A stretch of 64,000 nucleotides of DNA, from positions 248,001-312,000 of the forward strand of contig JBEWZL010000235.1 in NCBI GenBank assembly GCA_045837725.1, in the 5' to 3' direction. Positions 25,401 to 64,000 of this stretch are shown in pieces. The notes beneath the pieces were generated by a model that was not told the DNA's origin, made no database searches, and was given only the letters and a program-made list of their open reading frames with translations. This stretch comes from Vermamoeba vermiformis. Lineage: Eukaryota. The translations under genes and the position numbers were made by a program. Within the stretch, counting starts at the first letter, position 1. Each line of letters begins with the position of its first letter.

Positions 25401-25562
25401 GCCGTTGCCGCGGGGAACAAAGACATTGTAAAGTTTTTGGTGCAATTAGGCGCCATGCCGTACGCCGCTGCTGGTCAGTCACTCGTCGAGTACGCCAACA
25501 AAAAAAATCAAGCGGAAATGGTCGTGTTTATTGAAACGTGTGAGCGCACAAAAGAACAATAA
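22437..25562 (+). CDS. F-box-like + SH2 + ankyrin-repeat protein (FbxB-like architecture)
   Basis: N-terminal SLAELPSEYWRAL...CRIASKALNKLLDD. SH2-like PWFFGNISNDEAEAKLMGAANRRTFLTR. Introns at ~24382-24452 and ~24580-24634 join this in frame to the 24558-25562 ORF, which has ankyrin-like AWLAVAAGNKDIVKFLVQLGA. Confidence 0.7.
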
Positions 25563-31028: not shown

Positions 31029-34000
31029 TTACATGGCAAACAGAGACAAGATGACAGCGAGCACTGCATTGAAAGCGGCAGTGACAGCGCTGGCAACTTG
31101 ATCCTTGGCAGGAGTGTTTCCGGGGTCGTCGGCAATAGGCTCGTCAGCAACGGGCTCGGTAACAGGCTCAGCAATAGGTTCGTTAGAGGCTTGAGGAGTA
31201 GAGACGGGCACGGATTGAGGCGCGGACACGGGGCCAGAGGCAGGAACGCACTTGGAGTTCTCGCACAGGTTGCTCAAACAGTCCTCGTTGATGGAGCAGG
31301 TTCTGTTGAGCGCGCAACCACCGCAGAATGAGCCACCGCAGTCAACGTCGGTCTCGTCTTGGTTCTTAGAACCGTCGCTGCATGTCGCTGTGCAGATCAT
31401 GGACACGCAAGAACCACCGAGGCAGTCGCTGTTGATGAGACAAGCCTTCTTCCAGCCACACTTGGGGCAAGCGCCACCACCGCAGTCAACGTCCGTTTCG
31501 TCAGCGTTTGTGACCGCATCAGTGCACGTGGGAGCTATGAAATTGATTACATCAGACCTCATTGTTAAGTCGCGAGATATTTATATTTAACTTACCGCAA
31601 GTGCCTGCAGTGCAAACACCGCCCGTGCAATCAGTTCCGTTATTGCAAGTGTTACCAGTGGTGCATTGAGTGCTGCAAGAACCACCGCAGTCAACATCTC
31701 CTTCATCTTGGTTCTTCACGCCGTCATCGCAAGTAGCAGCTTGGCAGATGTTGTTTGAGCACACTTTAGATTCACAATCAGAGTCGCCAATGCACTTTTG
31801 TTGTGCTTGACAAGGACTGCAGTCAGAGCCACCGCAATCGATGTCAGTCTCGTTTCGGTTTTGTTCGCCATCATCACAAGTTGGAACGGCTAAAATGAGT
31901 CCCGTTAGCAACTCGGCAATACTACAAGCTTCAATAAGACTTACAGCACTTGGAGGAGCCTGAGCAGCAACCGCTGACACAATCACCAGCGATGCTGCAA
32001 GTTTCACCGGTCAAGCAAGTAGCACCACAAGTACCACCGCAGTCTGCGTCGGTTTCGTCTTGGTTCTTGCGACCGTCATCGCAGGTAGCAACACAAGTGG
32101 ATGTCACATTGCTGCAGAGGCGGCTAACACAGTCGCTCTCGGTCTTGCACGATTGATCTTCGATACAAGTAGCACCACAAGCACCACCGCAGTCAGTGTC
32201 GGACTCGTCTTGGTTGGTGACATTGTCGTCGCAAGTAGGGATTTCTATGCAAAGGTTAGTATCGAAAAACAAGTCTGTCCGGTTATTGGGTACGTACTGC
32301 ATGTTCCGAAAGAGCTGCAATAGCCAGACGCACAATCACCATTGCCATTGCAAGTATCGTTAACAACACAAGTAGCACCGCAGATACCACCGCAGTCAGT
32401 GTCTGACTCGTCTTGGTTCAGGATTCCGTCTACACATGAAGGAGCTATTGCAAGTGTTAGATTTGGAACAACACAACTGTGGATTTGGCTCAAACATACC
32501 GCATTGATTATTCTCGTCACAGACCGAACTCAAGCAATCAGCACCGGATTTGCAGCTAGCTCCTTCAGCGCAGTTACCACCGCAAACTGAACCGCAATCA
32601 GTGTCAGATTCGCCCTGGTTCTTGGCTCCGTCATTGCAAGTAGGGTTCACTGGTGATGATGTGAGTAAGTCACCTCCACAAGTCACGTGAAAAAAGCTTA
32701 CCGCAAGTCAATCCGTTGCAATAACCAGAAGAGCAATCATCGTCAAAGCCACACTTCTTGTTGAGAGCGCAAGTACTGCAAACAGAGCCACCGCAGTCTA
32801 CGTCGGTCTCGTCTTGGTTCTTGACTCCGTCAACGCAAGTAGGATCTAAAATGAGTGTCAGGTAATCGCTCCGCTGCGACATTAATACCGAGACTTACCG
32901 CAAGTATCATAGATATTGCAAGAGCCACCAATGCAATCTCCTCCAGTCAAACAGCCATCACCCTCAGCGCACTTGGTTGCACATGAGCCGCCGCAGTCGA
33001 CGTCAGTTTCATCGCTGTTCTTAACATTGTCCGAGCAAGTGGGAGTAACACAAGTGTTGTTTGCCGCGCAATAGTTACTGGTACAGTCGCCCCAAATAGA
33101 GCAGCTCTTGCCAAGAGCACAAGGACTGCAAGAACCACCGCAGTCGATGTCAGTCTCGTCTTGGTTCTTGAATCCGTCAACGCACGTTGGATCTGAAGAA
33201 CAAGCTGTTAGGACTTCACTGGCAGCAATTGCCAAACGGTACGTACCACAAGTGTTACTAACGCCACAAGAGTTTGTGACGCAGTCGGTGTTAGCAACAC
33301 AACCTTCACCTTCACCGCACTTTGTTGAGCACGAGCCACCACAGTCGATGTCAGTTTCATCACTGTTCTGAACTCCGTCATCGCAAGTAGGAGTGACACA
33401 AGTCTTGTTTGCGGCACAGTAGTTGCTGTTACAGTCATCCCAAATAGAGCAGCTCTCACCAAGAGCACAAGGACTGCAAGAGCCACCGCAGTCGATGTCA
33501 GTCTCGTCTTGGTTCTTGACTCCGTCAATGCAAGTGGGATCTAAAAAGAACAAGCCGTTAGACCCCACTGGTAGTGCCACACAATACGTACCGCAAGTGT
33601 TGCTAATGCTGCAAGAGCCACCAATGCAATCTCCTCCAGTCAAACAGCCATCACCCTCACCGCACTTTGCTGCGCATGAGCCACCACAGTCGATGTCAGT
33701 TTCATCGCTGTTCTGAACTCCGTCGTCGCATGTGGGAGTGACACAAGTGTTGTTTGCCGCGCAATAGTTACTGGTACAGTCGCCCCAAATAGAGCAGCTC
33801 TCACCAAGAGAACAAGGACTGCACGAACCACCGCAGTCAACATCGGTTTCGTCGCCGTTCTTCATGCCGTCGATACACGTGGGTTCTAAGTAACAACCGT
33901 TAACAACTATTCAAAGATACTGCAGACAAAAGGCATACCGCATGTGTTATTCAGGCCGCAAAAGTCGGTGTCGCAGTCCTCGCTTCCATTGCAATTATCG

Positions 34001-37000
34001 CCGACCTTGCAAGTAGCACCACAAACGCCACCACAGTCAATATCGGCTTCATTCTGATTCTTAACAGTGTCGTTACATGAGGCAAAAGCTATTTCGAATT
34101 GTTAGTCGCCTTGTATGAACAGTATGGCGCAATCAACGTACCGCAGACGTTATTGTCACAAATGAAACTGGCACAATCATCGTTCACAAGGCAAGCTTTG
34201 CCTCCAGCACAAGTAGCACCACAGCCCCCACCGCAATCTACGTCGGTCTCGTCCTCGTTTTTGATAGTATCACTGCACGTTGCATTCTCTGCTCGGGTGT
34301 TAAAACAATTGCTTCGATATCTGAATATAATACGTACTGCAGACCAAGATACCAGGGTAACAAAATGCGGTAGTACAGTCATCATCAGCAAGACAACTTT
34401 GATCGACATTACATTTGCTACAAACGTCACCACCACAATCAACGTCAGTTTCGTCCTGGTTCTTGCGGTTATCAACGCAAGTGGGTTCTGTCCACTGTTA
34501 GTCAACATGCTAATAAAAGTTTAAACTTACGGCAAGTGTTAGATTGGCAGGAGTCGGTAATGCAATCGCCGTTAATTGTACAGCTGTCTCCTTCAAGGCA
34601 CGTAGCACCGCAGATACCACCGCAATCGGCATCGGTTTCGTCTTGGTTCACCCAAGTATCATTGCATGTAGGAATTGAGCAGAAACCATTGGGGTTGCAG
34701 TAGTTGCTCGTGCAGTCAGTACCGTTCAAGCACATCTTGCCATCAGCACATGTGATGGCGCAAGAGCCACCGCAGTCGACATCGGTTTCGTCGCCGTTCT
34801 TCCAAGTATCGATGCATGTTGGGGTCGCACAGAGACCATTAGGGTTGCAGTAGTTGCTCGTGCAGTCAGTGTCAACTGAGCAGGTCTTGCCATTGTCACA
34901 GTTAGCTGTGCAAGAACCACCACAGTCTACGTCTGCCTCGTCTTGATTCTTGATACCGTCAGTGCACGAAGGTTCTGAAATTGATGGTTAGTAACTTTTA
35001 ACTAGCCGGCAGTATAGAACTTACGACATGTTCCTCCAGAGCAAGAGCTGCTCGTGCAATCGGTTCCAGTTGAGCAGGTCTTGCCATTGGCGCACTTCGT
35101 AGCACAAGAGCCACCGCAGTCGACATCGGTTTCATCGCCGTTCTTCCAAGTATCGATGCATGTTGGGGTCGCGCAGAGACCATTAGGATTGCAGTAGTTG
35201 CTCGTGCAATCTGTACCAACTGAGCAGGTCTTGCCGTTAGCACACTTGGTTGTACAGGAGCCACCACAGTCGACGTCTGTCTCGTCTTGGTTCTTCCACG
35301 TGTCAACGCACGAGGGAGTTGCTGCGCATTAAAAATTAGATTAACTACCTAAGCATATTCTTAAAACTTACAGCAAAGACCGTTAGGATTGCAATACGTG
35401 CTCGTGCAGTCGGTGCCGAGTGAGCAGGTCTTGCCGTTGGCGCACTTGGTTGTGCAAGAGCCACCACAGTCGACATCTGCTTCATCGAGGTTCTTGATAC
35501 CGTCAGTGCACGAAGGGCCTGATGAAGCGTGAGTAAAGCGTGACTTTGCAGTTGGTTACTTACTGCAGACTCCAGCGTCGCAATTGCTGCTCGTGCAGTC
35601 AGCGTTCTGTGAGCAAGTCTTTCCGTTGGCGCACTTGGCAGAACAGCTACCACCGCAGTCGACATCTGTCTCGTCTTGGTTTTTGATCAAGTCAGAGCAA
35701 GTGGGTGTGGCTATTGATAAGTGTCAATAAACGTATTGCAACCGCGTTTGAAAGGCTCTACTCACCGCATTGATTGCTGGGGTTACAGTATGCGCTGCTA
35801 CAGTCAGTGCCACTTGTGCACGATTTGCCGTTGGCGCACTTGGTTGAGCAAGGACCACCACAGTCAACGTCCGCTTCGCCTTGATTCTTCCACGTGTCAA
35901 CGCACGAGGGAGTTGCTTAATGGTTTAATTAGAAATGTAAGCTTAACTATGAATGTTGATCTTACAGCAAAGACCGTTTGGATTGCAGTACGTGCTCGTG
36001 CAGTCGGTGCCGAGTGAGCAGGTCTTGCCGTTGGCGCACTTGGTCGTGCAAGAGCCACCACAGTCAACGTCTGCTTCATCGAGGTTCTTGATACCGTCAG
36101 TGCACGAAGGGCCTGATGAAACTTCAGTAAAGGGTGACTTTGCAGTTAGTTACTTACTGCAGACTCCAGCGTCACAATTGCTGCTCGTGCAGTCAGTGTT
36201 CTGTGAGCAAGTCTTTCCGTTGGCGCACTTGGCAGAACAGCTACCACCGCAGTCGACATCAGTCTCGTCTTGATTCTTGATCAAGTCCGAACAAGTGGGT
36301 GTGGCTATTGATAAATGTCAATAAATGTAATGCGATCGCATTTGGAAGGCTCGACTCACCGCATTGATTGCTGGGGTTACAGTATGCGCTGCTACAGTCA
36401 GTGCCACTTGTGCACGATTTGCCGTTGGCGCACTTGGTTGAGCAAGGACCACCGCAGTCAGTGTCTGCTTCGCCTTGGTTCTTGAAGCCGTCGACGCAAG
36501 AGGGAGTTGCTGAAAGTATAACAATTAGAAACAAAAGATTGCCATGAACTTTGATCTTACAGCAAAGACCGTTTGGATTACAGTACGTGCTCGTGCAGTC
36601 GGTGCCGCTTGAGCAAGTCTTGCCATTGGCACACTTGGTTGAGCAAGGGCCACCGCAGTCAATGTCTGCTTCGCCTTGGTTCTTGATACCGTCACTGCAA
36701 GATGGTTCTGAAATAGATAATCAGTAAAGGCACACGGATCATGTTGATTGACTTACGGCAAGTTCCGCTGGAGCAAGAGCCGCTAACGCAGTCAGTGCCG
36801 CTCGAGCAAGTCTTGCCGTTGGCGCACTTGGTTGAGCAAGGGCCACCGCAGTCAATGTCTGCTTCGCCTTGGTTCTTGAAGGTGTCAGTGCACGAGGGAG
36901 TTGCTGAAACGAGTAAATATACAAACTAAGACAATAATTAGACCTTACAGCATAAGCCGTTGGGGTTGCAGTAAGTGCTGGTGCAGTCAGTGCCGGTTGA

Positions 37001-38759
37001 ACAAGTTTTGCCGTTGGCGCACTTGGTTGTGCAAGGACCACCACAATCAATGTCTGCTTCGCCTTGGTTCTTGAAGGTGTCAGTGCACGAGGGGGTTGCT
37101 GAATAGTTCAATTAGAAATGTAAGATTACTATGAACTTTGAACTTACAGCAAAGACCGTTGGGGTTGCAGTACGAGCTTGTGCAGTCAGTGCCGGTTGAG
37201 CAAGTCTTGCCGTTGGCGCACTTGGTAGTGCAAGGACCACCACAATCAACGTCTGCTTCGCCTTGGTTCTTGAAGGTGTCAGTGCACGAGGGAGTTGCTG
37301 AAAGTATAACAATTAGAAACAAAAGATTGCCATGAACTTTGAACTTACAGCAAAGACCGTTAGGATTGCAATACGTGCTCGTGCAGTCAGTGCCGCTTGA
37401 GCAAGTCTTGCCATTGGCACACTTGGTTGAGCAAGGACCACCACAATCAACGTCTGCTTCGCCTTGGTTCTTGAAGGTGTCAGTGCAAGAGGGAGTCGCT
37501 GAGACGAGTAAGTACAAACTTAGGGAATAACTTGAACTTACAGCATAAGCCATTGGGGTTGCAGTAAGTGCTCGTGCAGTCAGTGCCGGTTGAACAAGTT
37601 TTGCCGTTGGCACATTTGGTTGAGCAAGGGCCACCGCAGTCAATGTCTGCTTCGCCTTGGTTCTTGATACCGTCGGTGCACGAAGGAGTAATTGGCACCA
37701 AGGATATATCGTGAATAAGAACGTTACTTGGATTAGCTATAGTAGTTGGACTGCCAGTGTTGATAGTGGATGAACCAGAATCCACCAATCTGAAAATACG
37801 AGTCGCAGAGGTGAAGTAAATAACGGTGCTACCACTCTCCAATCTGACAAAGATACCGTTGGGAAGCACAGTGATAGATTTGGATGCAACTTGAGACCAA
37901 GTACCACCAGATTTAGTGAACTTGACAATGGCTGCATTTGTAACATCCACACGGTTTGTCGCGTAGATAACAGTGTCAGAAAATACGAAGAACTTGCCGC
38001 CCTTCCAATTGCTGGTTGGTGCAATAATGCTACTCGGGGTAACGGAGCTTGATGGATACGGAGTGCTTGTACCAATAGCATAAGGTGAGGTGGTACTATA
38101 CTGACTGTAGTACTGAACTCCGTTCAAGACTTGCATGTCGTAAACATCTGTAACACTGCCGCCGAGGATGTTGGTCACTGTGGCACCGGTTGAACCAATA
38201 GGCACTTTTACGAGACGTCCAGCACCCGCAGCCCACACGTTGCCTGAATATGGCAAAGCAGTGTACAAGTTTTGATTGTTCAAGGAAAAGGTTGTAGTAG
38301 TTACGGTGCCCGAGCCGTCGACGGTGTAGACGTAACGGGATGCAGTATTTGAAATGGTGCTTCCTGCAGTACCTGCGTAGCAAGGTACCGCTAAAATTGT
38401 GCCGTCTTCACTCAGTTGAGCACCTCCCTCCATAGCGTTGGTGAAGCCGCCCCGAACAATGCACCTAGGATGGCGTCGGTTAAATTGCTTTAGTCTTTAC
38501 GTTCTTACGATAACGAAATTGTTTGCACGAGAGTACCGGACGTTGTGTATTCGTCGATAAATAGGGCATTACTAGTCGAAGACGGAGTGTTTGCTGAAAA
38601 ATAAATCAATGAGTACATCCAGATGAGTACAATGAATCTCGAATCCTTACATCCATCACCTGATCTTGTAACAAGAATGTTTCCCTGCGTGAAAGCCGCA
38701 CCTAAAACTAGATGCGCGCAGTACAGCACTAACAAACAGGTTGCTAACAAACGACCCAT
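31029..38759 (-). CDS. Large secreted, probably GPI-anchored, Cys-rich repeat surface protein
   Basis: Signal peptide MGRLLATCLLVLYCAHLVLG, a beta-rich N-terminal domain, about 35 repeats of P[TS]CxDxxKNQ[DG]E[TA]DxDCGGxCxxxCxxGxxCxxxxDCxSxxC, a Pro/Ser/Glu stalk and a hydrophobic C-terminus (SAVTAAFNAVLAVILSLFAM). Confidence 0.88.
32898..33885. repeat. Triplicated two-repeat exon (~347-bp period)
   Basis: CSPC.LG.SCSIW.DC.SNYCAAN.TCVTPTC recurs three times with near-identical DNA. Confidence 0.85.
35372..37690. repeat. Recent tandem exon+intron duplications within the Cys-rich gene
   Basis: The three-exon block at ~35372-35914 is near-identical to ~35966-36509, with similar introns. Exon+intron units of ~200 bp recur at 36560-37690; the intron text 'gaaagtataacaattagaaacaaaagattgccatgaactttga' appears at ~36512 and ~37300. 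Confidence 0.85.
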
Positions 38760-51513: not shown

Positions 51514-54235
51514 TTATTTTTTCGCCGTGAATACGCGCACTATCTTTGGTTGACCACCAGGTGAGCCAGGCATAAATTGTGGCGGAGGTCTCTTTGGCAT
51601 GACAGAACTAAAAATTTGATTTTTCAGAATCCAAACCCGAACCCTCGACAAAAAAAAAATGGTACTTACATCTTGACTGTTCCAGGACTGTTCGGTGCTG
51701 AAATCGATTGAGGACTTGACGGCAATGAACTGGATCCTTGTGCGGTGTTGTTTTGATTTTGAGCGGATCTCGGACTGACTGCGCCATCTCTCGGACTAAT
51801 TTGTTCGACGAGCTCTTGTGCTGGCAACGACTGCGAAGTTGGCTAATTAAATAAGGAATTAGTATTACACCTCAATAATAATATATAGCCTTATTTAACT
51901 TACTCGCTTTGGTTTGGCAATTTGAACTTTGGGTGAGGAAATTAATTTTGGCGAGTCAGGCATTGGCGGCAACGATTGCGATGAAGCCATAGGACTCGTG
52001 CCCAATAAATTGGACTTGGCTTGCGCGCCGCTTCTTTCACCTGACACCCAGCCCGGACTCGATGGCTTACGAGCCTCTGTCACTTCTGTAATATTGGTCG
52101 TTAGTCAATGCGAAACATTACGTCACATCGATCATTCTTACGATCATTAGACTCGGTTAACTCTTCACGCGGATTTGTGCCAAAAGATGACGAGCCGAAA
52201 CTATTTGACCCTTGTCTGGCATGTTGGGCCTTGGAAACAGCTGCAAATATCACGTGAGTAAGTTAATATCTTGGTTCACTGAACGGTGACATTTCACACT
52301 TACGGCCCATCTTTCTCGCTCGCTGCACAGCTTGCAATTGATAGTCTCTAAGCACTGCTTTGATCTTCTCGACCCACTTCTTTTTGATCTCCAAAGACTC
52401 GACACAGATCATCGCGGTGTTGTCAGCCGAGTTTTTGTTGCGCACTTCAAACGCGTTTTTGAGGCCCTCCATGTCGGCCATATCAACCACACTCAAGTTT
52501 TTAATGTCAAATCGCTTCTTCAAGACGTATCGATCTTTCTTGCCCTTGGCCGCACAAATGATAAACATGTCGTTGAATAGCCACGCGTGTCGGGGCTTTT
52601 TGTCCTTTTTGATCACCATTTCGATGTCTCCTTCCATCAAAAACTTTCTGTGCGGCGCGGCCAAATTCAACTCTTCGTCCTACCCAACAAAAACATGTTA
52701 AAATCTCAGCCCTATATTCATTTTATAAAGCCATATTTGGGAAATATTATGTAACCGTCGGCCTTAGTATATATCTATTATATGGACGTACCTCGGTGTC
52801 TATGCAGTTAGCAATGTCCATCAACTTTTGCATGTCACGTGCTTGTGCGCCTTCAGCCGCCTTTTGATTCTCGTTAACTTTCTCAGCAATGCCGTCAATT
52901 TTATGTTTTGCAGCTGTTAAAGTACGCCAATCTTCCATTGACTCATCTGTATCGCGAATAAGGTCCTGCAAAAAATTTAGTACGTTGGATCTTGATCCGT
53001 GAAAAAAATGTTAGTATCTATTGTGTACCTTTAATAATAAGGGATATTTGCATATTCGCTGCACGGGTTTGATTAAGAAGCTAAACAAAGGTAAATTTCG
53101 ACAGCGTGGGTTTTGGTCGCAACTCTCCAAAAATGCAACAAATTCTTGATTCTCTTTCAGGCCTTCGTACAACGACAGCGCATTTTGTTGATTGGCGCAA
53201 TATTCTTCGTATACTTTAAATTGTTCGGCCTAAAAGGATCAATCATTAATAGAACCAAAAAAGTCAGATAGATCTGGCATGCCGAAAAAAGATTCTGCGG
53301 TATAATAATTGATATAGCCTAGTCAAACAATGTAATATCTAATCGGTGTTATTATGACGTATATTATTGCTCCGATTATTATTGGCAATTTACCTACGCA
53401 ATCAAATTTCTATAATTAACGCTTGTACGTACCATCTCGAGGAAGATTTCGCCTAAATTAACTTGCATATAATCGCCACTGCACCGTCGTACTGTTTCTT
53501 CGAATAAAGCAAGCATTTTTCGGTTGACTTCGAGAATGGATGGCAGATTTGAAAATAATCCCATAATCTCTTGATTTGAAATAATTCCATTTTGTTTTAG
53601 TGGTAATAAGAACTCCTATAATAATTATTTTTGCCATTAGTTTCTGTTCGATCGAGCAAAAACAAAACAAAATCATCATACAATTTCGCTTCAATTAAAC
53701 TGCTTTTACATTTCTTAAATTGATTATGCTATCGCATAGTATTGACGCATTTATAGGATAGAAATTTTAGATATTGAAGACTGATGAAATTACGTACCGA
53801 AATTATTAATTCAAGATCAGCAATGTAACTTCGTTCTGTAAGCACAATTTCTTCAATTCGTTTAGCTCTATTAGGCAAATCTGAATATGTTCCATTTTCT
53901 AACGAAGAAGTACGACTTCGGTGCATTAAAGGCGAGCTAATGCTATGAGGACTGCTACCCGCAGTAAATCCAGTTAGATCCGGGTATGAATCGCTCGAAA
54001 CGAGCTCTAAAGCACCAGGCAATCTAACTGCTGTTTGTCCTGAGAATGATTCGAATTGCTTGCGCAGATCCATAAGAGCCGTTTTCAGATTCTGAACGTC
54101 GCTGATCAGCTCGTCAATTTGCTCTTGCTGATTACGTATAGTCTATATTTATAATTAATACTTATTTTCCCATTATTAATTAGTCCTTACTTCATTTTGC
54201 TTCTGAATAACGTGCTTTAAATCCGCTTCGCTCAT
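51514..54235 (-). CDS. Dbl-family RhoGEF (coiled coil, DH-PH, Pro/Ser-rich tail)
   Basis: IEEIVLTERSYIADLELII, YEEYCANQQNA, LPLFSFLIKPVQRICKYPLLL, and a PH domain (RKFLMEG...PRHAWLFNDMFIIC...KKKWVEKI). Stop at 51514. Confidence 0.9.
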
Positions 54236-54680: not shown

Positions 54681-56796
54681 TTAGCTCTTATACTTGGCAC
54701 GCTTATCGACGTAGTTCTTCATTTGTCCTCTGAACGATTGGATTCGCTCCAGTGATCGTTGAGGAGCAGCGTTGGTCGAGATCCAAGGGTGCGATAATGA
54801 CTCTTCGCAGGTCGGTCTCTTGCTGGGATCCAAGATCAAAATCTTCTTGACAAAGTCCTTGGCCTCAGGTGAGATCGTGTCCCAATCAGGGCTTGGGAAA
54901 TCGAATTCTGCCTTCATAATCTTTTCGAAAATTTGTTGATCTGTGTTGCCGTAGAATGGAGGGAAACCGCACAACCTATAGAACATTACCATATTAGGAA
55001 ATGCATGCGTACCGTGCATCACCCTCGTATAGTACTTACAAAATATAAGTAATCACACCAATAGACCAAATATCAACGGAGTTGTCGTATGGCATGCCTT
55101 TGAGCACTTCAGGGGCTGTAGAAATAATACCACAGCATTAGTATTGATTACTATATACGTCCATATGTAGTACTCGACACCTACCAACATAATCAGGAGT
55201 ACCGCAGCTTGTGCGCAGCGAGTCAGCACCAAAGTCCTTGGACAAACCAAAGTCCGTCACCTTGATAATGTCTTTGTTGGGGCCAGAGCACAACAAGTTC
55301 TCGGGCTAATAATAATACGACGGTTAATATCATGCTTAAAATAGGCGTAATAACTGGTTTGTATTGCTAGTCTGAATTATTTCTCCGTTGATCCGTTAAT
55401 TTAATGTTCTCGAATGTTTACGGGATCTTACCTTCAAGTCACGGTGAGCAATACCGTTATTGTGCATATAAGCAACAGCATCGAGGATCTGTCGCACGAT
55501 GGCGGCAGCATCGGCCTCAGAGTATGAACCACGATTGACGATCTGATCGAACAATTCTCCACCGGTCACCAATTCCAAGACCAAATAGATGTGCGTGGAC
55601 TCGTCAAAGACGTCAATCAATGCAATAATGTTCTTGTGCTTCAACTTGCGCATAATATCGATTTCTCGTTGCAACAAATTGAGTTCTTCGCCCTTGGCTT
55701 GATTCTTTTCAATGATCTTGATGGCCACTTTCTCGCCGTTCTCTTTGTTAATACCCTCGCGCACCACAGAGAAGCCACCACGTCCTAACTCTTTGCCAAA
55801 CTCGTACAAGTCCTTCACGTTGCGTCCCTTGTCGCCACCTTCCGAGATTTGGGAGTGCGAAAGAGGTTTTTCGTGGTGACCGTCGTCTTTGTGTTCTGAA
55901 ACAACAACCTGGAGAATATATTATTATAAATACGCGTGGAGAATATTTCATGAAAATAACAAAATTATGAGCATATTATTATTCAGCAAATGTTGGAAAG
56001 ATTTATCGCTAGATCGAATGCCGTTAGCTTACCTTGCTTGTTGCCTTGCCCGAAGGGAAGTGCAACTTAACGCGAATCTCACCAGGGGGTTGTCCTTGAG
56101 CTTTTTTCTTTGGTTCGTTTTCAAGTTTATACCATTCGTCGATCACCTCGCCGGTTTCAGCTTTTTTGACCGGGATGGCGACCTCACCGAGGAAATCATC
56201 CGAAATCCAACGATCCTTGTCCCATACTTTGATCATAACGTGGCCGGTAGGCTTTGAAGTATAGCTAAAAACGGCCAATCAGCAAATTGAAGGCACAAAA
56301 AAAATTAATATTTAAAAATGAAAGCAAAATAATATTTCGGTGCTAGTCGTCTGTAAATGTAGATCGATGCCGGTAATATTCATATTATCAGTTTGGGTAA
56401 TAAACGCCTTACAACTCGAAGTCTTGGTTCCATTCAGGATTCAAAGTTTTCTTGATGACTTTCGTTTTGAATTGTTGCTTATTAAAGTTGCACTTAACCA
56501 CTGCGTAAGGATCAGAAGTTCCTATTAAAAAATAATACAATTAATCTCGCAGTAAAAATAAAATGCTTCGAGAATAAATCTGAGATGCCGTTACTCACCT
56601 CCCTTATCCATAGCAGCCAAATTGCGGCCAGCGATCACTATAATATTATAATACGTTAGATACTTATATTTTCCATTACATAGGGGTTCTTGAATCGTCC
56701 GCTACTCCGGCATTCGCACTTACTGGATACATAGAGAGTACCAGCATCCTTGTCAGCTGTCTTATGCTTATCCTTCTTATCTTTTTTGTTGCTCAT
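54681..56796 (-). CDS. C2-domain CaMK-group Ser/Thr kinase
   Basis: C2 domain ([45 protein letters not shown]), then a kinase domain ([43 protein letters not shown]). Confidence 0.92.
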
Positions 56797-57148: not shown

Positions 57149-59980
57149 TTACTGCTTGTTGGACATGAAATAGTAAAGAACAAGAGCTAAAATGGCAGCA
57201 GCCGCTCCAATGGCGAGTTGTTTGGGGTTATCTAATAATTCTAAGAGAAAAGCTCGTTAGTCCCGCGTCTTTACAAACGATCCACAAAAAATAATGTAAA
57301 ATTACGTAAATCATCAATAATACTTACCTTGCAATTGTTGAGGTAGTCCACCCTTGGCAGCTTTTTTACCGGTGAGTTTCTTGAGTTTGGTTTCAGTGTC
57401 CTTGTCGAGTTTAGCAGGAGCAGCAGGCTTCCTTGTAGGCTCGGTAGGTTGTTTCTTGGGTTTCTTCTCTTTAGGGGGTTGAGGAGCAGGGGTAGGCTCG
57501 ACGACGGTGACCTTCTTTTCTTTCTTTTCTTTGGGGGGTTGCGGTTGCTTTTCCTTCTTTTCTTTAGGTTGTTGTTTCTCCTTAGGAGGCTGTTGTTTAG
57601 TCTCCTTGGGCTGTTGCTTAGTCTCCTTAGGTTGTTGAGGTTGAGTGGCTTGTTTCTTAGCAGCGGCAGGAGCGGGAGTAGTAGTAGGTTGAGGAGCGGA
57701 TGTGACGGGTTTGGGAGCCTCGACTTGCTTAGGCTTGTCTTGTTGCTTGGGCTTAGGCTTGGGCTTGGCAGCAGCAGGCTTCTCAGCGGGTTCTTGCAAC
57801 ATCTTTTCGACGTCCTTCTCGCTCTTGTTGACAATAATGTCAAAGAAGTTCTTGTCAGTGAACGACTTGGCAGCGCTGTTGGCGGCAGGGGCGGGAGTGG
57901 GGGCAGCGGGCTTGGCCTCCTTGGGCTTGGCGGCCTCAGGCTTGCCCTCTTGCGAGTCGCGGCTCTCGTTCAAGGCCTCACGCTTGCGTTGAGCTCTCAC
58001 GTTTCTGGGGTCCTCAGCAAAGTCATCGGGACTGGTCTCCTTGGGAGCGGCCTTGGGAGTGACCTTCTTAGTGACTTGTTCGGCTTGAGCGGGTTGCTCC
58101 TTCTTGTTCTTCTTATTCTTCTTAGTGTCCTTCTTCTCAGCAGGCTCAGCAGCAGCACCGTTCTCGGGGGCAGCGGCAACAACAGGGGCGGGTTCGGGCT
58201 CAGGTTCAGACTCGTCTTGAGCAGGGAAGTATTCCTTGACGGCAGGGATGTTGATGAAAGTGTGCATGTCCTTGTATTCGGCCTTGATGCGAGTAGCGAC
58301 CTTCTTTTTCTTCTCCTCAGCACCCTTGATACGCTCAGCCAATTGAGTGTAAGCAGTGGTGCTCTTGGTGAACCAGGAGCGAGTCTCGTTCAAAGCGGCA
58401 TCGAGTGCCTTCTTGTTGAACTTTTCGCGCAAAGTCTTGAGGTTGTCCTTGAAGGCGGCTTGATCGGGGAATCTCTTCTCGCGGGCAGCAATAGTCTCGT
58501 CGAGTTTGTCGAAAACTTTGGAAAGGTTGAGGCCTTGTTGGTAAACACCAGCAGCAAAGTCCTCGAATGTGAAATAGACTGCGGGCTTATCGCCAGGCAA
58601 AATAGCCTTCAAAATACGACCAGCACGGCCCAATCGTTGCAATGTGATTTCTTCTTTGTCATTTACAGGGAGTTGCACGCGTTGTTTGTCTTTGAACATA
58701 TCGGCAACGGCTTCGAGCCATCTAAAATTATATTGTTAATATTGCTATTTTTAGCCATAATTTTTAGGTTCGTTTCGAGATCCAGTGAACAGTCCACAAA
58801 AAAATGCGAAAAATTCGAAATAAATTTCTCTGTGGTCCTAATAACCCGTATATGTTATTACTTACTTGCTGACGTAGCCTAATTGGGTGCATTCGATGCC
58901 CAAAGGAGTGCTTTGGTTCTGACCCTTCTGATAAAATCTGAAACCTCCGTTAAGCTTCAAAGCCTTTCCTTGCTTGTCAACTTCGCTCAACAAACGATCG
59001 GCCAACGTCTTAAGACGAGCTTCGCGCTAATAAAATTAAAGAAATTAATAATTTGGTCGCACGTGTAACGGCTTAAAAAATATCTTCTTAGTTGAGCCGC
59101 GAGAAGCGCCCAACGTAAAGCAAGTATGCAAACAATTCGCTTAGTGTAATTATCGCGCACTGCACAAACAGTAATAATGAGGAAAAGTTGGACGAACGTG
59201 TCAGATACGCATCAAAAAAAATATTTTATCGTGGCAATTTGATGGCGCAGTAAATTGATAGTTGATCAGCAATTTGAAGTAGAGTAATTTTCGTATCAAC
59301 GTAAAAATTGAATGGTGGAATTATACCGCAAGTTCAGCTTATTTTGCTAATCTAGGATTAAAACAACCAAATTACCTGAAGCAGCTCCTTGACGGTAGTA
59401 TAACGGCCTTCGCTCTGTTCGTCATTATTCTCATTTTCGTTACCGGCTTGATCGTCAGTTTGTTCCTCTCCGTTTTTGTCATCAGCTTGATCTTTGTTCT
59501 GTTGTGGGATCTGAACTGCAATGCGCACACTCAACGGTGTGAGGCTGAGGTTCTTTAATTTGAACTTATTCCAGACTTGAGAGCTGCCAAACTAAAAGTT
59601 TTTCAGTTTTTTTAAAAATTGAATAATAAAAATCAGTATAAAAATCAACGCTACCAGGAGTAATAATCCGTGGTGATTTCGTCATAATAAATACTTACGA
59701 CAATGTTGCCAAAATGGTTAGTGCTAGCGAGCATGCTGACAGTCTCGGGGCCAAGATGGGCAATAAGATCTTTAATAAAGTTGCTTGGCAACAAGCTGAA
59801 GTATGAGGGAGGTAACGAATCCTTATCAATATTTCTTTTCACCACGGGAGAGGCGGGCTGATTCTGTTGAGGAGCAGGTTGTTGCGCGACTCGATTCACC
59901 TCTTTGGGTTTTTGGATGACCGGTCGAGGCAAAGCATCGCCAGAGCCTGCTAATTTCTTTACAGCAGCAGCATAATCCAT
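57149..59980 (-). CDS. Tail-anchored protein with an F-box-like N-terminal motif and a long K/P/Q/E/A low-complexity region
   Basis: FSLLPSNFIKDLIAHLGPETVSMLAST..FGNIVFGSSQVWNK is F-box-like. The long exon at ~57328-58721 has strong codon bias. The final exon reads LLDNPKQLAIGAAAAILALVLYYFMSNKQ, with the stop at 57149. Confidence 0.7.
57450..57640. repeat. Coding low-complexity repeats (QPKETKQ / QPPKEKK)
   Basis: Imperfect ~21-nt units such as tgttgtttagtctccttgggc and tgttgcttagtctccttaggt. Confidence 0.7.
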
Positions 59981-60327: not shown

Positions 60328-63300
60328 CTATTTTGTTTTTTGTCGTTGACGCCACAGCACGTACAGCCCTCCAGCTATTAGCGATATGCCAAGCGTTGCA
60401 GCAAAGCCATACAGAGCTACTGTTTTAGTTTTGGTTTGACGTCTGAGCTTGGTTCTTTTTGCGGATGTCAACGGTGCGCGTGCTTGCTGTGTTCGGATCA
60501 CCTTGCCCGGCTTCTTCGTGTGAGGCGATGAAGTCGCATTTATGAACGGCAAATATCCATCGGTACTTGGAGGAGTGTATTTGAACGGTTCCTGGCCAAT
60601 GTTGAGGTGTACATGCTGAGCTTCGGCCAACGAGATCGCAGGGAAGAATCCCTCTTGAGCTTGAATATTCTCGAATGCTACACCGCACGATCTGCCGTTC
60701 ACAGAAAACATGATTTTTCCTCTTGGCGAGTCTAAGTCTACGAAGCAGCCAATGATGTCGCCAACTTTCCATTTGGGTCCGTAAGGTTTCGATCCACCGT
60801 GACACGCGGTCTGCACGCTTAGATCTATGGCGTAGGAGAAGTCGTCTTCGGCATAGCCAGTGCGCACGAACATACTGCGAGGGTAAATAAGTACAGGCAT
60901 ATAATTGGAGAGATACTACGTACCCGTATCTGTCAATAGTGTTCGAGCTAGCCCAGCCAATTTCCATGGATCCAGCGGTCTTCAACGCGACTTCATAGTA
61001 CCACTTGCCTATTATTAACGGTAAGACTGGCGGTCTTATTAACACGAAATTTAGTATCGTACCTTTGGTTACACCTAACGGCAAGAAGACAGTGCCATAA
61101 TGGCCTCGCACACTGTATCCATCTTCGGAGATCTGGGTCATCACGGTACTGTAATCCTCAGTGAATGTTAAATCTCCGCTACGCTTAGGAGAGCCTACAA
61201 TAAAACTTAGTACTATTCCTAACTTTTCATGCCTAATCAATGAAATGTACCTTCAATGCGGTCGTGTGCCCAGGTTAATGCAAACTTGGCAGGTTCATCG
61301 CGCAGTTGGTTTGCGGCAACAATTTCAGCAATCATATTAGAAGCATCGTCAACAGGGATGAGACTACGGTACTGCGGGTCTGCCGCCAAATAGCCAATCA
61401 AATCGACTAAGTGAACAACGACCTTGTCACGTTTTGACGCGACTGCTTGGCTGATGACTTTGGGGATGAGCAGCTCCAAAAATTGTTCGGCTTCGGTCGT
61501 TGGGGCTCGGATTACCACTAAATATAGTCAGCTTTAGTTACCGTCATAAATTCGGACTGTGCTACTTACGGTTAAAGATGATGTACTTGACTAATAAATA
61601 AAGACCCATCTTATTGCCGGTTCGCAGTGCGTTGGTGAATGAGTCCACGATGACCTCGCCGTGACCCTTCTCAATCAACAGCGCAAAGGCCAGCACGAGA
61701 ATGTTGTAATATTCCGCGTAGCCGACGGCAAGCTGTACGGTTAGTTAGAACTCGTTTAGACTAGATCAGCTTTTTATACTTACGAGCATTGCGTTTTCAA
61801 TCCATTCTTCGGCGTATTTGTTGATCTCCTCGTCAAATTCCTCTGCGTAAAAGGTAAGTAAATGAATTTCAATTTAGATCCGGCGGATCAAATCCAACGT
61901 ACCGTGTTCAAGCATTACGACATAGCCGTCAATAACTTCGCTGACAAGTTTGGCGCTGAAATCGAGCTTCAGAATATCACCCATTAACGAGGTCAAAGTT
62001 CCAACACCGTCTTTCTCAATGATCAAGCTGTGGTATTTTGGATCTAACAGAAACATTATTAACACAAAAAAAATAAATAAATTGACGACAGAATATACAT
62101 ACTGTACGACACAAGGTATGCAATGGCTGCGTGGAAGAACGAGAGCGGAATTTCTCTTGCAGTGTCTAAGAACTTCTCAATCAAGGGCTCGCGACCGTCT
62201 TCGAACAACAAATCTGCCAGGCTCGGTTAGTCTAAGTGATATATTATATGATAGTATCGATTAACACGTACTGATCATTTGAGTCCTTGAATGAGCATAA
62301 GCGACCAACGTAAATCCAGCTTCACGAATTCCAAGCAACTGCACATGGCTGGGTTAGCACGGAGTTTTATCAGTATAGCAATCATTGGACTTACTTCAGA
62401 GGACATCAAGTCAGACATGGTGCTGAACACTTCTTCAGACATGATTTGTACAATGTTTTCTATATATGTAAGGTTAGCATGGTGGCGTCAAGTGACGGAT
62501 CTGCAGTATTACTCACCGTGAATCATGCAGCGATAGAACAAGTTAGCGGCGCTGTATTGTACATCGGTATATTCGTGTTTAGTATACTGAACGAATATTT
62601 GATCGACACCTTCGTTGATAAGCAGATCTTGGATGTCGGCGGCTACGAACATTTTCATCAGCAATCAGTCTTATTAATATGCTATTGATATAAGCTAGGT
62701 ACTTACATAATCTTGACAAGGTCGTTAAAAATCTTAATAAAGTGCCAGTCAACAAAGGATCAGTTTCTCGTCGAAGTAACTCAAGCGATCTCGGCGCGAA
62801 GAATTCTCGCTCCAAAATATCAGTCTTGTATTTTTCTATTATTCAATATTAGCATGATATAAATACAGCAATTAATAACAGTATTACCGTCATTGGCAAA
62901 GTCCAAAAGAGTTCCGACAGCCATGTGCCAAGCAGCGGGCTCGACGTAATCAGCATTGAAGATAAAACCTAGCGCGTTGATAGAATCCGGATAGTCCATG
63001 ATCATAGCTCTAAGGTCCTCTATAATAAATTAAAATTAAATTAATAGCCAGAAAGGATGTCGATGCTATTTGCTTCTTTGGACTTAAGTCTTACCAGAAT
63101 TTGAGGCGCAGAAAAAGCTCGAAGCCACCCATTTAAGTACTTCAGGGTCATGTTCATGAGTCAGTACCATCGTAATCATATCATCAAAGCTCGTAACAGC
63201 TGCTGATCCACCGACTGAGACTTGAGGCATAACTTTATTCGAATATGAGATTAATATTATGCTTATAAAAGAACTCATCGTTATTTACGTACCGTATTGT

Positions 63301-63961
63301 TTCTTCAACATGCCGCTACATTATAACAAAAAAATATTAGTAATTGATCCGGAGTTACAGATTCAAGTGTACTTTGGGTTATAATACTTACGCAGGGTAT
63401 TGTCTATCATAATAACATTCTAAGAATCCATGAGAACGCAAGAAGAGCCAAATAATCGATGCTTTAAACGCTCTGCCTTCGCGTTCGAGCAGTTGTCTGT
63501 AACCTTCAAGTGTCACTTTGCCATCGACTAAATATTGCGGATTTAATGCAGTAATTTCATTTTGGACTGCTTGGAAGTAACTGTCTTCATGGTCCGTGCC
63601 AAACAGATCATTCTAAGAAAAATAAAAAAGATCAGATCCACGAACAAAAAACTATTCTTAAAATAGCGTTGTTGTCTTACATAAAATTCCATGCATTCTG
63701 CTGCGTTTAACATATCGTCTCCGTCTTTATCGTAGTGGCGGAAAATCGTTGTCATGAAGTCGCGAACGTAAGGCAAAAACTAATTCGATAAATTAATAAC
63801 ATAGGAATAATAATAATAGGGATGGATAAGAGTATAAACTTACGCCGTTTTGACGAGATTGAATGGATACTAATGGATATAGCATGACTGAATCTGCGAC
63901 GTCGATAATTTCGTTGCATCCGCTAGGAGTTGTTGGCGAGCATATCATAGACCCCTCATAC
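60328..63961 (-). CDS. 5'-truncated protein: Miro-like EF-hand module + helical (ARM-like) region + SPRY domain + C-terminal TM
   Basis: In-frame spliced exons run from IFRHYDKDGDDMLNAAECMEF through helical exons to a SPRY domain (GKWYYEVALKTAGSMEIGWA, KWKVGDIIGCFVDL, MFSVNG, FFPAISL, LNIGQEPFKY). The C-terminus is VALYGFAATLGISLIAGGLYVLWRQRQKTK. Confidence 0.75.
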
Positions 63962-64000
63962 TAGTATTATGACATATATTAGTATTTATGAAGCTATTAT

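What the first reader, a model, noticed from the sequence alone, without database searches (positions are those of the whole stretch)
60328..63961. Miro-derived chimera: Miro-type EF-hand module fused to helical repeats, SPRY and a mitochondrial-type tail anchor
Seen after splicing: ICSPTTPSGCNEIIDVADSVMLYPL...FLPYVRDFMTTIFRHYDKDGDDMLNAAECMEFYNDLFG...AVQNEITALNPQYLVDGKVTLEGYRQLLEREGRAFKASIIWLFLRSHGF. Known: Miro/Gem1 reads CSA..end of GTPase 1..AVLHP, then RIF...D.D.DG.L.D.EL..FQ..CF, then G.TL.GFL.L...F...GR.ET.W..LR.FGY. Canonical Miro continues into a second EF-hand pair and GTPase 2. Here a ~23-nt exon (GMLKKQY) links in frame to helical exons and an RSPRY1-like SPRY domain with no RING, ending in a TM segment plus a basic tail (RQRQKTK). 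Inference: a Ca2+/GTP-sensing outer-mitochondrial scaffold with an architecture I have not encountered.
Basis: partly seen in the sequence, partly recalled or inferred. Interest (0 to 1): 0.78.

Follow-up and report, generated by a model that had tools for sequence, protein, structure and literature searches.

The report
Miro-derived, tail-anchored F-box/SPRY protein gene
This is one real, expressed, intron-rich gene whose protein joins the front half of the mitochondrial GTPase Miro to an armadillo-like solenoid, a SPRY domain and a membrane tail anchor, with an F-box at the start in close relatives, an architecture found in no paper by my three searches of the held library.

Summary
On the minus strand, 63960-60328 carries 18 GT-AG exons, including the 23-nt microexon at 63315-63293. 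They give an open 873-aa frame that runs off the window at 64000. The frame aligns to an independent 1089-aa protein at 85% identity, 873 of 873 residues, with no gaps.

Spliced contigs from two public runs show the predicted introns removed, including both sides of the microexon. Full-length relatives (1104 aa, on contigs too short to hold introns) add a complete F-box and a Ras-type GTPase upstream.

Profile comparison with a canonical Miro gives 99.35% probability over 290 columns covering GTPase 1 and the first EF-hand domain. Human Miro1 is the best solved GTPase match. There is no second EF-hand domain or second GTPase. An ARM-like solenoid, a SPRY domain and a conserved C-terminal anchor follow instead.

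An exhaustive search of 1.84 billion representatives found one distant multi-domain relative, a Vermamoeba transcript.

Best reading: a tail-anchored SCF-type substrate receptor on mitochondria and/or peroxisomes, with a Miro-type GTP/Ca2+/client-binding head. The architecture is shown; localisation and ligase function are inferred.

The parts
63844..63960 (-). First exon visible in the window (39 codons): end of the Miro-type GTPase 1 (G5-like CSP and last helix). The gene continues upstream beyond 64000.
   Evidence: Frame and AG acceptor. Aligns to the end of GTPase 1 of human Miro1 and of a canonical Miro. RNA contigs of X1 and X2 continue 255 nt beyond 63966.
63681..63779 (-). Exon with the canonical EF-hand of the ELM1-like domain. 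The 12-residue loop DKDGDDMLNAAE lies at 63731-63696.
   Evidence: Pfam EF-hand_1 E 7e-4, 19.4 bits, below the 25.4 cut-off. Aligns to the first EF-hand of Miro. Joint 63779|63844 in X1 and X2.
63392..63612 (-). Exon with the rest of the ELM1-like domain (second, non-canonical EF-hand and following helix). Ends in phase 2 at a GTAAGT donor whose TAA would be an in-frame stop if unspliced.
   Evidence: hhalign columns to Miro positions 225-306. No Pfam EF_assoc_2 hit.
63293..63315 (-). 23-nt microexon (GMLKKQY) that restores the frame between the Miro-type head and the helical body.
   Evidence: Joint 63232|63293 in X1 and X2, plus loose ends reading the end of exon 3. The equivalent segment GVLKKEY is present in the intron-free relatives P0002, P0154, P0156 and P0157.
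61251..63232 (-). Eleven exons (63232-63095, 63019-62888, 62835-62707, 62642-62517, 62459-62395, 62338-62272, 62213-62103, 62043-61903, 61842-61784, 61732-61570, 61517-61251) encoding an all-helical, ARM-repeat-like solenoid of about 450 residues.
   Evidence: Joints. AlphaFold model of relative P0154: helices throughout residues 395-847, pLDDT 80-95 for 400-600. Foldseek matches to ARM-repeat chains 7sqc_N3 and 4rv1_C at E 2e-7 to 4e-7. No Pfam family.
60592..61194 (-). SPRY domain across three exons (61194-61063, 61008-60924, 60874 onward); the Pfam core is 61008-60592.
   Evidence: Pfam SPRY 1e-16 (last exon) and 1.9e-3 (previous exon); 1.9e-24 in P0154. PDB sequence matches RyR2 SPRY2 1e-22, DDX1, ASH2L, RanBP9/10. 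Foldseek TM 0.8-0.86 relative to the target.
60328..60420 (-). C-terminal tail anchor: 23-residue transmembrane segment (60420-60352), basic tail RQRQKTK (60351-60331) and stop TAG (60330-60328). Preceded by a basic linker.
   Evidence: Highest hydropathy of the protein, 1.79 over 19 residues. The last 15 residues are identical in P0154 and in the 72%-identical genomic relative L001.

Best explanation
The stretch is the 3' four-fifths of one expressed gene. In close relatives the full product is about 1104 aa and reads, from N to C:
- F-box
- Miro-type GTPase 1
- Miro-type first EF-hand domain (ELM1)
- ARM-like solenoid
- SPRY domain
- basic linker
- single C-terminal transmembrane anchor

I read it as a Miro paralogue. 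It kept the GTP-, Ca2+- and client-binding head of Miro and a tail anchor. It has an ARM-SPRY recognition module where ELM2 and GTPase 2 would be, and it carries an F-box.

Proposed mechanism: the tail anchor inserts it post-translationally into the outer mitochondrial and/or peroxisomal membrane, with the bulk facing the cytosol. The F-box recruits Skp1-Cul1, so the protein acts as a membrane-bound SCF substrate receptor. The SPRY/ARM module, and possibly the ELM1 pocket, select substrates or partners. Nucleotide and Ca2+ state of the Miro head modulate that binding.

Shown: gene structure, splicing, single transcript, domain homologies, purifying selection, rarity.
Inferred: membrane identity, Skp1 binding, ubiquitin-ligase function, regulation by GTP/Ca2+.

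My odds: single fused gene 0.95; Miro derivation 0.9; tail-anchored on mitochondria/peroxisomes 0.6; working SCF receptor 0.45.
For: Gene structure and expression
- 18 exons, open 873-aa frame, all introns GT-AG, 49-76 nt.
- 85% identity, 873 of 873 aligned, 0 gaps to P0002.
- X1 and X2 contigs skip the predicted introns, including those flanking the microexon.
- P0154 and P0156 (1104 aa) lie on contigs of 3364-3448 nt, and P0002 (1089 aa) on 3343 nt. These are too short for introns, so they are spliced RNA.

Domains
- Pfam on P0154: F-box-like 3.2e-10 (40.1 bits, cut-off 24.3), F-box 1.2e-6, Roc 7.9e-9, Ras 8.9e-9, SPRY 1.9e-24.
- Miro homology: hhalign 99.35%, E 6.3e-21, 290 columns, family positions 85-398 against Miro 6-306.
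- Miro1 9e2p_A E 6.1e-16 over query 70-352; Drosophila Miro 4c0j_A also hit.
- P-loop GDAKTGKT and TKSD are intact in P0154.
- The switch II region aligns with Miro's equally non-canonical one.
- EF-hand loop positions 1, 3, 5, 9 and 12 are D, D, D, N, E in the window, in P0154 and in the 29%-identical Vermamoeba protein.
- SPRY and ARM-like folds.

Anchor and selection
- One hydrophobic segment, 7 residues from the end.
- Its last 15 residues are identical in three relatives, while the linker before it varies.
- dN/dS 0.083 over 339 codons against L001.

Literature (passages read)
- The ELM1 pocket plus a GTPase 1 strand is the shared client-binding site of Miro (10.1101/2023.07.25.550462).
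- A moderately hydrophobic TMD with a highly charged tail directs tail-anchored proteins to peroxisomes or mitochondria (PMC5450235).
Against: - The window itself holds neither the F-box nor most of the GTPase. Both are inferred from 85%-identical relatives, plus a 30-letter loose end that reads like the relative's GTPase end.
- No Pfam EF_assoc_2 hit, and EF-hand hits lie below Pfam's cut-offs. Position 6 of the loop is D/N/R instead of G, so Ca2+ binding is not assured.
- AlphaFold did not fold the GTPase region: pLDDT below 50 for residues 44-269, from a shallow alignment.
- P0155 (719 aa, 2286-nt contig) begins at the Met directly after the microexon. This could be a short isoform without the Miro head. 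It could equally be an intron-retaining or truncated contig, as P0157 clearly is.
- The only distant relative, P0004, shows no F-box and no tail anchor in the transcript available. Its N-terminus is cut inside the GTPase and it ends 10 residues after the SPRY domain. These two parts may therefore not be universal in the family.
- The overhangs into exon 3 are short (14 and 12 nt).
- Some F-box proteins at mitochondria are said (recalled, not checked here) to act without SCF.
- No localisation, binding or activity data exist.
Confidence: 0.55

Rival explanations
1. It is a non-degradative membrane scaffold or adaptor. The protein sits on the organelle surface and uses the Miro head, ARM and SPRY domains to tether partners (motors, contact-site proteins). 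The F-box serves only as a protein-binding module or is inert.
For: Miro itself is an adaptor whose GTPase 1-ELM1 unit binds many clients (passages of 10.1101/2023.07.25.550462). The ARM and SPRY folds are general interaction domains. The distant Vermamoeba relative shows no F-box in the available transcript. No ligase evidence exists.
Against: The F-box passes both Pfam cut-offs (40.1 and 28.6 bits) and sits at the extreme N-terminus, as in typical F-box proteins. SPRY domains recur as substrate-recognition modules of E3 ligases, for example RanBP9 in the CTLH ligase entry 7nsc_A found.
Confidence: 0.3
2. The Miro head is a structural relic. The GTPase and EF-hand no longer bind GTP or Ca2+ and serve only as a fold, so the protein is not a sensor.
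For: Pfam EF-hand scores are below cut-off and there is no EF_assoc hit. Loop position 6 is not Gly. Switch II lacks the usual Gly. There is a long insert between the P-loop and switch II.
Against: The P-loop and NKxD-type motif are intact. The Ca2+-ligand positions are kept across 29%-identical relatives. Miro's own GTPase 1 has the same non-canonical switch II in the alignment.
Confidence: 0.3
3. There are two adjacent genes: a truncated Miro-like gene ending at the TAA inside the donor at 63390-63388, and a separate ARM-SPRY gene starting at the ATG in the microexon or at 63229. The fusion is a gene-model artefact.
For: An in-frame TAA follows exon 3 if it is unspliced, and ATG codons exist at 63311 and 63229. 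P0155 begins at the second of these. Contig depth is lower over the 5' exons than the 3' exons in X1 and X2.
Against: Only 77-160 nt would separate the two genes. Contigs of X1 and X2 join exon 3, the microexon and exon 5. Four intron-free relatives (P0002, P0154, P0156, P0157) read through the junction. The Vermamoeba transcript also spans EF-hand to SPRY in one frame. The hhalign homology to Miro runs on through the microexon segment.
Confidence: 0.04

Closest known systems
Miro / Gem1 (mitochondrial Rho GTPases; human MIRO1, PDB 9e2p, 6d71; Drosophila Miro 4c0j)
   Same: Homologous N-terminal GTPase 1 and first EF-hand (ELM1) domain in the same order. Both have a C-terminal tail anchor with a basic tail. 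The retained part is the one reported as the client-binding unit of Miro.
   Different: No ELM2 and no C-terminal GTPase: only one Ras/Roc hit, and no EF_assoc_1 or EF_assoc_2. About 450 residues of ARM-like solenoid and a SPRY domain stand in their place. There is an F-box in front. ELM1 is too diverged for Pfam EF_assoc_2, whereas the canonical Miro fragment P0135 scores 6e-27.
F-box/SPRY proteins (FBXO45 / FSN-1 type; recalled, not searched here)
   Same: An N-terminal F-box combined with a C-terminal SPRY domain as the presumed substrate-binding module.
   Different: Those proteins are short and soluble (recalled). Here a Miro head and an ARM solenoid lie between the two domains and a membrane anchor follows. 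No direct sequence comparison was made.
Mitochondria-associated F-box proteins (yeast Mdm30 and Mfb1, mammalian FBXL4; recalled)
   Same: F-box proteins acting at the mitochondrial surface; this is the proposed place and kind of action.
   Different: No homology outside the F-box is known or was tested. None of them has a GTPase, EF-hand or SPRY domain, as far as I recall. The search listing showed no tail-anchored F-box protein with this build.
SPRY domains of RyR (SPRY2), DDX1, ASH2L and RanBP9/10
   Same: Closest SPRY sequences and folds: RyR2 1e-22, DDX1 1.5e-14, ASH2L 3.4e-11, RanBP10 4.6e-10. Foldseek E 8e-11 to 1e-8.
   Different: Only the SPRY domain is shared; the rest of those proteins is unrelated.
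RSPRY1
   Same: SPRY domain without further match; the resemblance was not tested.
   Different: No RSPRY1 entry appeared among the solved-structure matches listed, so nothing ties this SPRY to RSPRY1 in particular.

Membership tests
Miro/Gem1 family | N-terminal Rho-like GTPase domain (GTPase 1) | tested here: met
   Met in relatives P0002 and P0154 (Ras 8.9e-9, Roc 7.9e-9; Miro1 is the best GTPase match). The window holds only the last 39 codons of it (63960-63844).
Miro/Gem1 family | First EF-hand/ligand-mimic domain (ELM1; Pfam EF_assoc_2) | tested here: inconclusive
   hhalign aligns it to Miro positions 193-306 within a 99.35% match, and phmmer to Miro1 runs through it. However, there is no Pfam EF_assoc_2 hit at E <= 10 or in the full relatives.
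Miro/Gem1 family | Second EF-hand domain (ELM2; EF_assoc_1) | tested here: not met
   No EF_assoc_1 and no second EF-hand hit. The region after ELM1 is an ARM-like solenoid.
Miro/Gem1 family | C-terminal GTPase domain (GTPase 2) | tested here: not met
   Only one Ras/Roc stretch in P0002 and P0154. A SPRY domain precedes the anchor.
Miro/Gem1 family | C-terminal transmembrane anchor in the outer mitochondrial membrane | tested here: inconclusive
   The anchor is present and conserved. The membrane it enters cannot be tested with these tools.
F-box proteins (SCF substrate receptors) | F-box motif | tested here: met
   F-box-like 3.2e-10 (40.1 bits, cut-off 24.3) and F-box 1.2e-6 (28.6 bits, cut-off 20.5) at residues 2-46 of P0154. 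This lies outside the window, so it is shown for relatives only.
F-box proteins (SCF substrate receptors) | Binding of Skp1 and assembly with Cul1 | not testable with these tools
   No Skp1 of this organism is at hand. The complex tool's reference option takes bacterial, archaeal and phage entries only.
SPRY domain proteins | SPRY beta-sandwich | tested here: met
   Pfam 1e-16 on the window's last exon. Model pLDDT 85-98. Foldseek TM 0.77-0.86 relative to DDX1 and ASH2L SPRY chains.
ARM-repeat proteins | Tandem three-helix armadillo repeats | tested here: inconclusive
   Foldseek matches to ARM-repeat chains 7sqc_N3 and 4rv1_C (E 2e-7 to 4e-7, about 480-500 columns, rmsd 11-15). The model was built from a shallow alignment. 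There is no Pfam Arm or HEAT hit.
Tail-anchored membrane proteins | Single TMD within about 30 residues of the C-terminus and no N-terminal signal sequence | tested here: met
   The only strongly hydrophobic segment ends 7 residues from the C-terminus. The N-terminus of P0154 is an F-box.

The most novel reading that the evidence does not exclude
A Miro paralogue has been turned into a GTP/Ca2+-gated, organelle-anchored SCF ubiquitin-ligase receptor. Through its retained ELM1 client pocket it would recognise the same short motifs that canonical Miro binds. It would then hand those clients, or Miro-bound complexes, to ubiquitination at the mitochondrial or peroxisomal surface. This would be a built-in antagonist of Miro-based adaptor function. 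It would be present in at least two distant lineages, one of them Amoebozoa.
Probability: 0.15. Interest if true: 0.85.

Novelty: new variant of a known kind. Interest (0 to 1): 0.62.

Why it matters
Miro is treated as a universally conserved four-domain adaptor. This protein is a natural dissection of it: exactly the GTPase 1-ELM1 unit, reported to bind all known Miro clients (passages read), is kept. It is wired to an F-box and to SPRY/ARM recognition domines on a tail anchor.

If the ligase reading holds, organelle-surface ubiquitination could be coupled directly to a small-GTPase/Ca2+ switch within one polypeptide. It would also give a simple system to ask what the Miro head senses.

The family is very rare in current data. 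The exhaustive search of 1.84 billion representatives found one distant relative, so it is easy to miss. My three literature searches found no description of it.

Tried and rejected
- Whole genome: none is held. I could not look for a canonical Miro or for the 5' exons in this organism.
- Word-based protein searches with P0002 and with the P0154+P0004 alignment returned only P0002 itself. This is weak evidence of rarity.
- ESM Atlas gave no usable hit for P0002 and no taxonomic clue from a kinase exon.
- Earlier findings: none for this genome.
- Rfam and tRNA scans of the window: 0 matches. The organism's lineage stays undetermined. I can say only that it is a eukaryote with short introns and CTAAC/CTAAT-like branch sites.
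- Run search: no RNA holder listed on record. When laid, however, the contigs of X1 and X2 proved to be spliced.
- Raw RNA reads of X15 and X17 are only 90-95% alike and sparse (47 and 63 reads laid). They support just a few junctions, for example 62213|62274.
- Exon-wise Pfam gave no EF_assoc hit.
- The AlphaFold model is unusable for residues 44-269, so no fold comparison of the GTPase with Miro was made.
- The metagenome scan gave one true relative (L001); the other 10 loci share only the SPRY domain.
- I suspected that the next gene downstream (start near 59980, minus strand) was also an F-box gene. Pfam found 0 families, so I dropped the idea.
- No complex prediction with Skp1 was run, because no Skp1 of a eukaryote was available to the tool.
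- Supplements of the two papers read were not seen.
Full report
**Observation**

I assembled them into 18 exons. Every intron starts with GT and ends with AG, is 49-76 nt long, and most carry a CTAAC/CTAAT-like branch site. The joined frame is open for 873 codons and ends at TAG 60330-60328.

The 23-nt exon at 63315-63293 is required. Exon 3 ends in phase 2, and a direct join to exon 5 hits a stop. If unspliced, the donor GTAAGT supplies an in-frame TAA.

The first exon seen (63960-63844) begins at an AG acceptor with no upstream start, so the gene runs off the window.

**Independent checks of the model**

A search with exon 15 found P0002, 1089 aa, on a 3343-nt contig. My spliced model aligns to it over 873 of 873 residues with 738 identities and no gap. 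This validates every junction at once.

Laying public runs on the stretch showed that the contigs of X1 and X2 are spliced. These come from two studies and are 95-99% alike.
- 13 of my 17 introns appear among the 15 listed joints. Two introns are listed twice in slightly different register, and 6 more joints were not shown.
- Intron 6 follows from adjacent record coordinates.
- Introns 2, 3 and 7 follow from loose ends that read the next exon.
- For the critical link, both runs show the joint 63232|63293. The letters beyond the microexon (14 nt in X2, 12 nt in X1) match the last letters of exon 3 in 13 of 14 and 9 of 12 positions.
- Both runs also continue 255 nt beyond 63966. The 30 letters shown translate to a peptide like the end of the GTPase in the relatives.
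- The raw RNA reads of X15 and X17 are from a more distant organism (90-95% alike; 47 and 63 reads laid) and add little.

**The whole protein**

The cluster of P0002 holds P0154 and P0156. Both are 1104 aa with a start Met, on contigs of 3364-3448 nt. That is too short for introns, so they come from spliced RNA.

Pfam on P0154 gives:
- F-box-like 3.2e-10 and F-box 1.2e-6 at residues 2-46
- Roc 7.9e-9 and Ras 8.9e-9 at residues 86-212
- SPRY 1.9e-24 at residues 896-1017

P0157 also reads through the microexon segment and ends in a retained intron. P0155 (719 aa) starts at the Met just after the microexon. It may be a truncated or intron-retaining contig, or a short isoform; I cannot tell which.

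**Is the head Miro?**

Pfam finds no EF_assoc family, exon-wise or in the relatives, and the EF-hand hits are below cut-off. The more sensitive tests say otherwise.
- phmmer of the first 415 residues of P0002 against all PDB chains puts human Miro1 first: 9e2p_A, E 6.1e-16, query 70-352 against chain 25-296.
- Next come Miro1 GTPase 1 alone (8.2e-8), RhoA (1.8e-7) and Drosophila Miro (3.4e-7).
- hhalign of the family alignment against a canonical Miro fragment gives probability 99.35%, E 6.3e-21, over 290 columns, positions 85-398 against 6-306. That fragment, P0135, itself scores EF_assoc_2 at 6e-27.
- This match covers GTPase 1 and all of ELM1, and it even runs through the microexon-encoded segment.

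The P-loop and the TKSD motif are intact in P0154. The EF-hand loop keeps D, D, D, N, E at positions 1, 3, 5, 9 and 12 in the window, in P0154 and in the distant relative. There is no second EF-hand domain and no second GTPase.

**The body and the tail**

An AlphaFold model of P0154 was built from a shallow 24-row alignment (mean pLDDT 65.9).
- It is confident for ELM1, for helices 400-600 and for the SPRY domain.
- It fails on residues 44-269.

Foldseek matches:
- The SPRY domain matches DDX1, ASH2L, RyR SPRY2 and RanBP9/10.
- The helical region matches ARM-repeat chains (7sqc_N3, 4rv1_C; E 2e-7 to 4e-7).

The C-terminus has the protein's most hydrophobic segment, 1.79 over 19 residues. It is flanked by basic residues and followed by only seven residues, RQRQKTK.

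L001 is a 72%-identical genomic relative with gaps at the same places as this gene's introns.
- It has an identical final 15 residues.
- dN/dS against the window is 0.083 over 339 codons, with dS near saturation.

By the rules described for tail-anchored proteins, a moderately hydrophobic TMD with a highly charged tail points to peroxisomes and/or mitochondria rather than the ER (passages of PMC5450235). That work was done in mammals and yeast, so this is an inference for this organism.

**Distribution**

HMMER read all 1.84 billion representatives. It found 3485 hits at E <= 1e-3, 727 at <= 1e-10 and 12 at <= 1e-30. Of the 150 listed:
- 137 have their best stretch within residues 812-1045, the SPRY region.
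- 11 are short fragments, 72-98% identical.
- One is a canonical Miro (P0135).
- One is a true multi-domain relative: P0004, 880 aa, 29% identical, covering query 179-1010 in one stretch.

P0004 is a Trinity transcript of Vermamoeba vermiformis in EukProt. It keeps the end of the GTPase, the EF-hand, the helical body and the SPRY domain. Its N-terminus is cut, and it ends without an anchor.

The lineage of the window's organism could not be determined.

**Mechanism**

The retained Miro part is the one reported to bind Miro's clients: a hydrophobic pocket in ELM1 plus a strand of GTPase 1 (passages of 10.1101/2023.07.25.550462).

Combined with an F-box, an ARM-SPRY recognition module and a tail anchor, the most economical reading is a membrane-anchored SCF substrate receptor with a GTP/Ca2+-responsive head. 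Only the architecture, expression and selective constraint are shown. Localisation, Skp1 binding, ligase function and regulation are inferred.

A relic-head variant is also open. The two-gene reading is close to excluded.

**Novelty**

Three literature searches found no paper describing this build; I judged this from the listings only.
- Miro + F-box + SPRY + GTPase: 9 papers, none relevant.
- 'Miro-like' + F-box: 4 papers, none relevant.
- F-box protein + tail-anchored + mitochondrial outer membrane + SCF: 18 papers, 10 listed, none with this architecture.

I rate it a new variant of known kinds (Miro-derived, F-box/SPRY), of moderate to high interest.

Noticed in passing
window 31029-38496, minus strand: Several long open frames carry many tandem copies of a ~45-residue Cys-rich module with the recurring motif ETD(V/I)DCGG..C. 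One ends in a hydrophobic segment. Pfam found no family for two of them. They look like a lineage-specific family of secreted or surface proteins.
   Followed up: partly
window 54684-55920, minus strand: A protein kinase gene split by introns: Pkinase 4.4e-40 on the 55399-55920 exon and 3.3e-12 on the 54684-55052 exon.
   Followed up: partly
window 52266-52679, minus strand: An exon encoding a PH domain of the SOS1/NGEF type (4.8e-15). This suggests a Rho-GEF-like gene next to the kinase.
   Followed up: partly
window 57314-58735, minus strand: A 473-residue open frame that is very rich in K, E, P and A in its second half, with no Pfam family.
   Followed up: no
P0155 (relative of the window's gene; equivalent to window 63229 onward): One 2286-nt transcript-like contig encodes only the ARM-SPRY-anchor part, starting at the Met right after the microexon. 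It could be a short isoform lacking the F-box and Miro head, or an incompletely spliced or truncated contig.
   Followed up: partly
window 24555-25559, plus strand: A 335-residue open frame with weak ankyrin-repeat matches near its end (Ank_2 9.3e-5, below cut-off).
   Followed up: no
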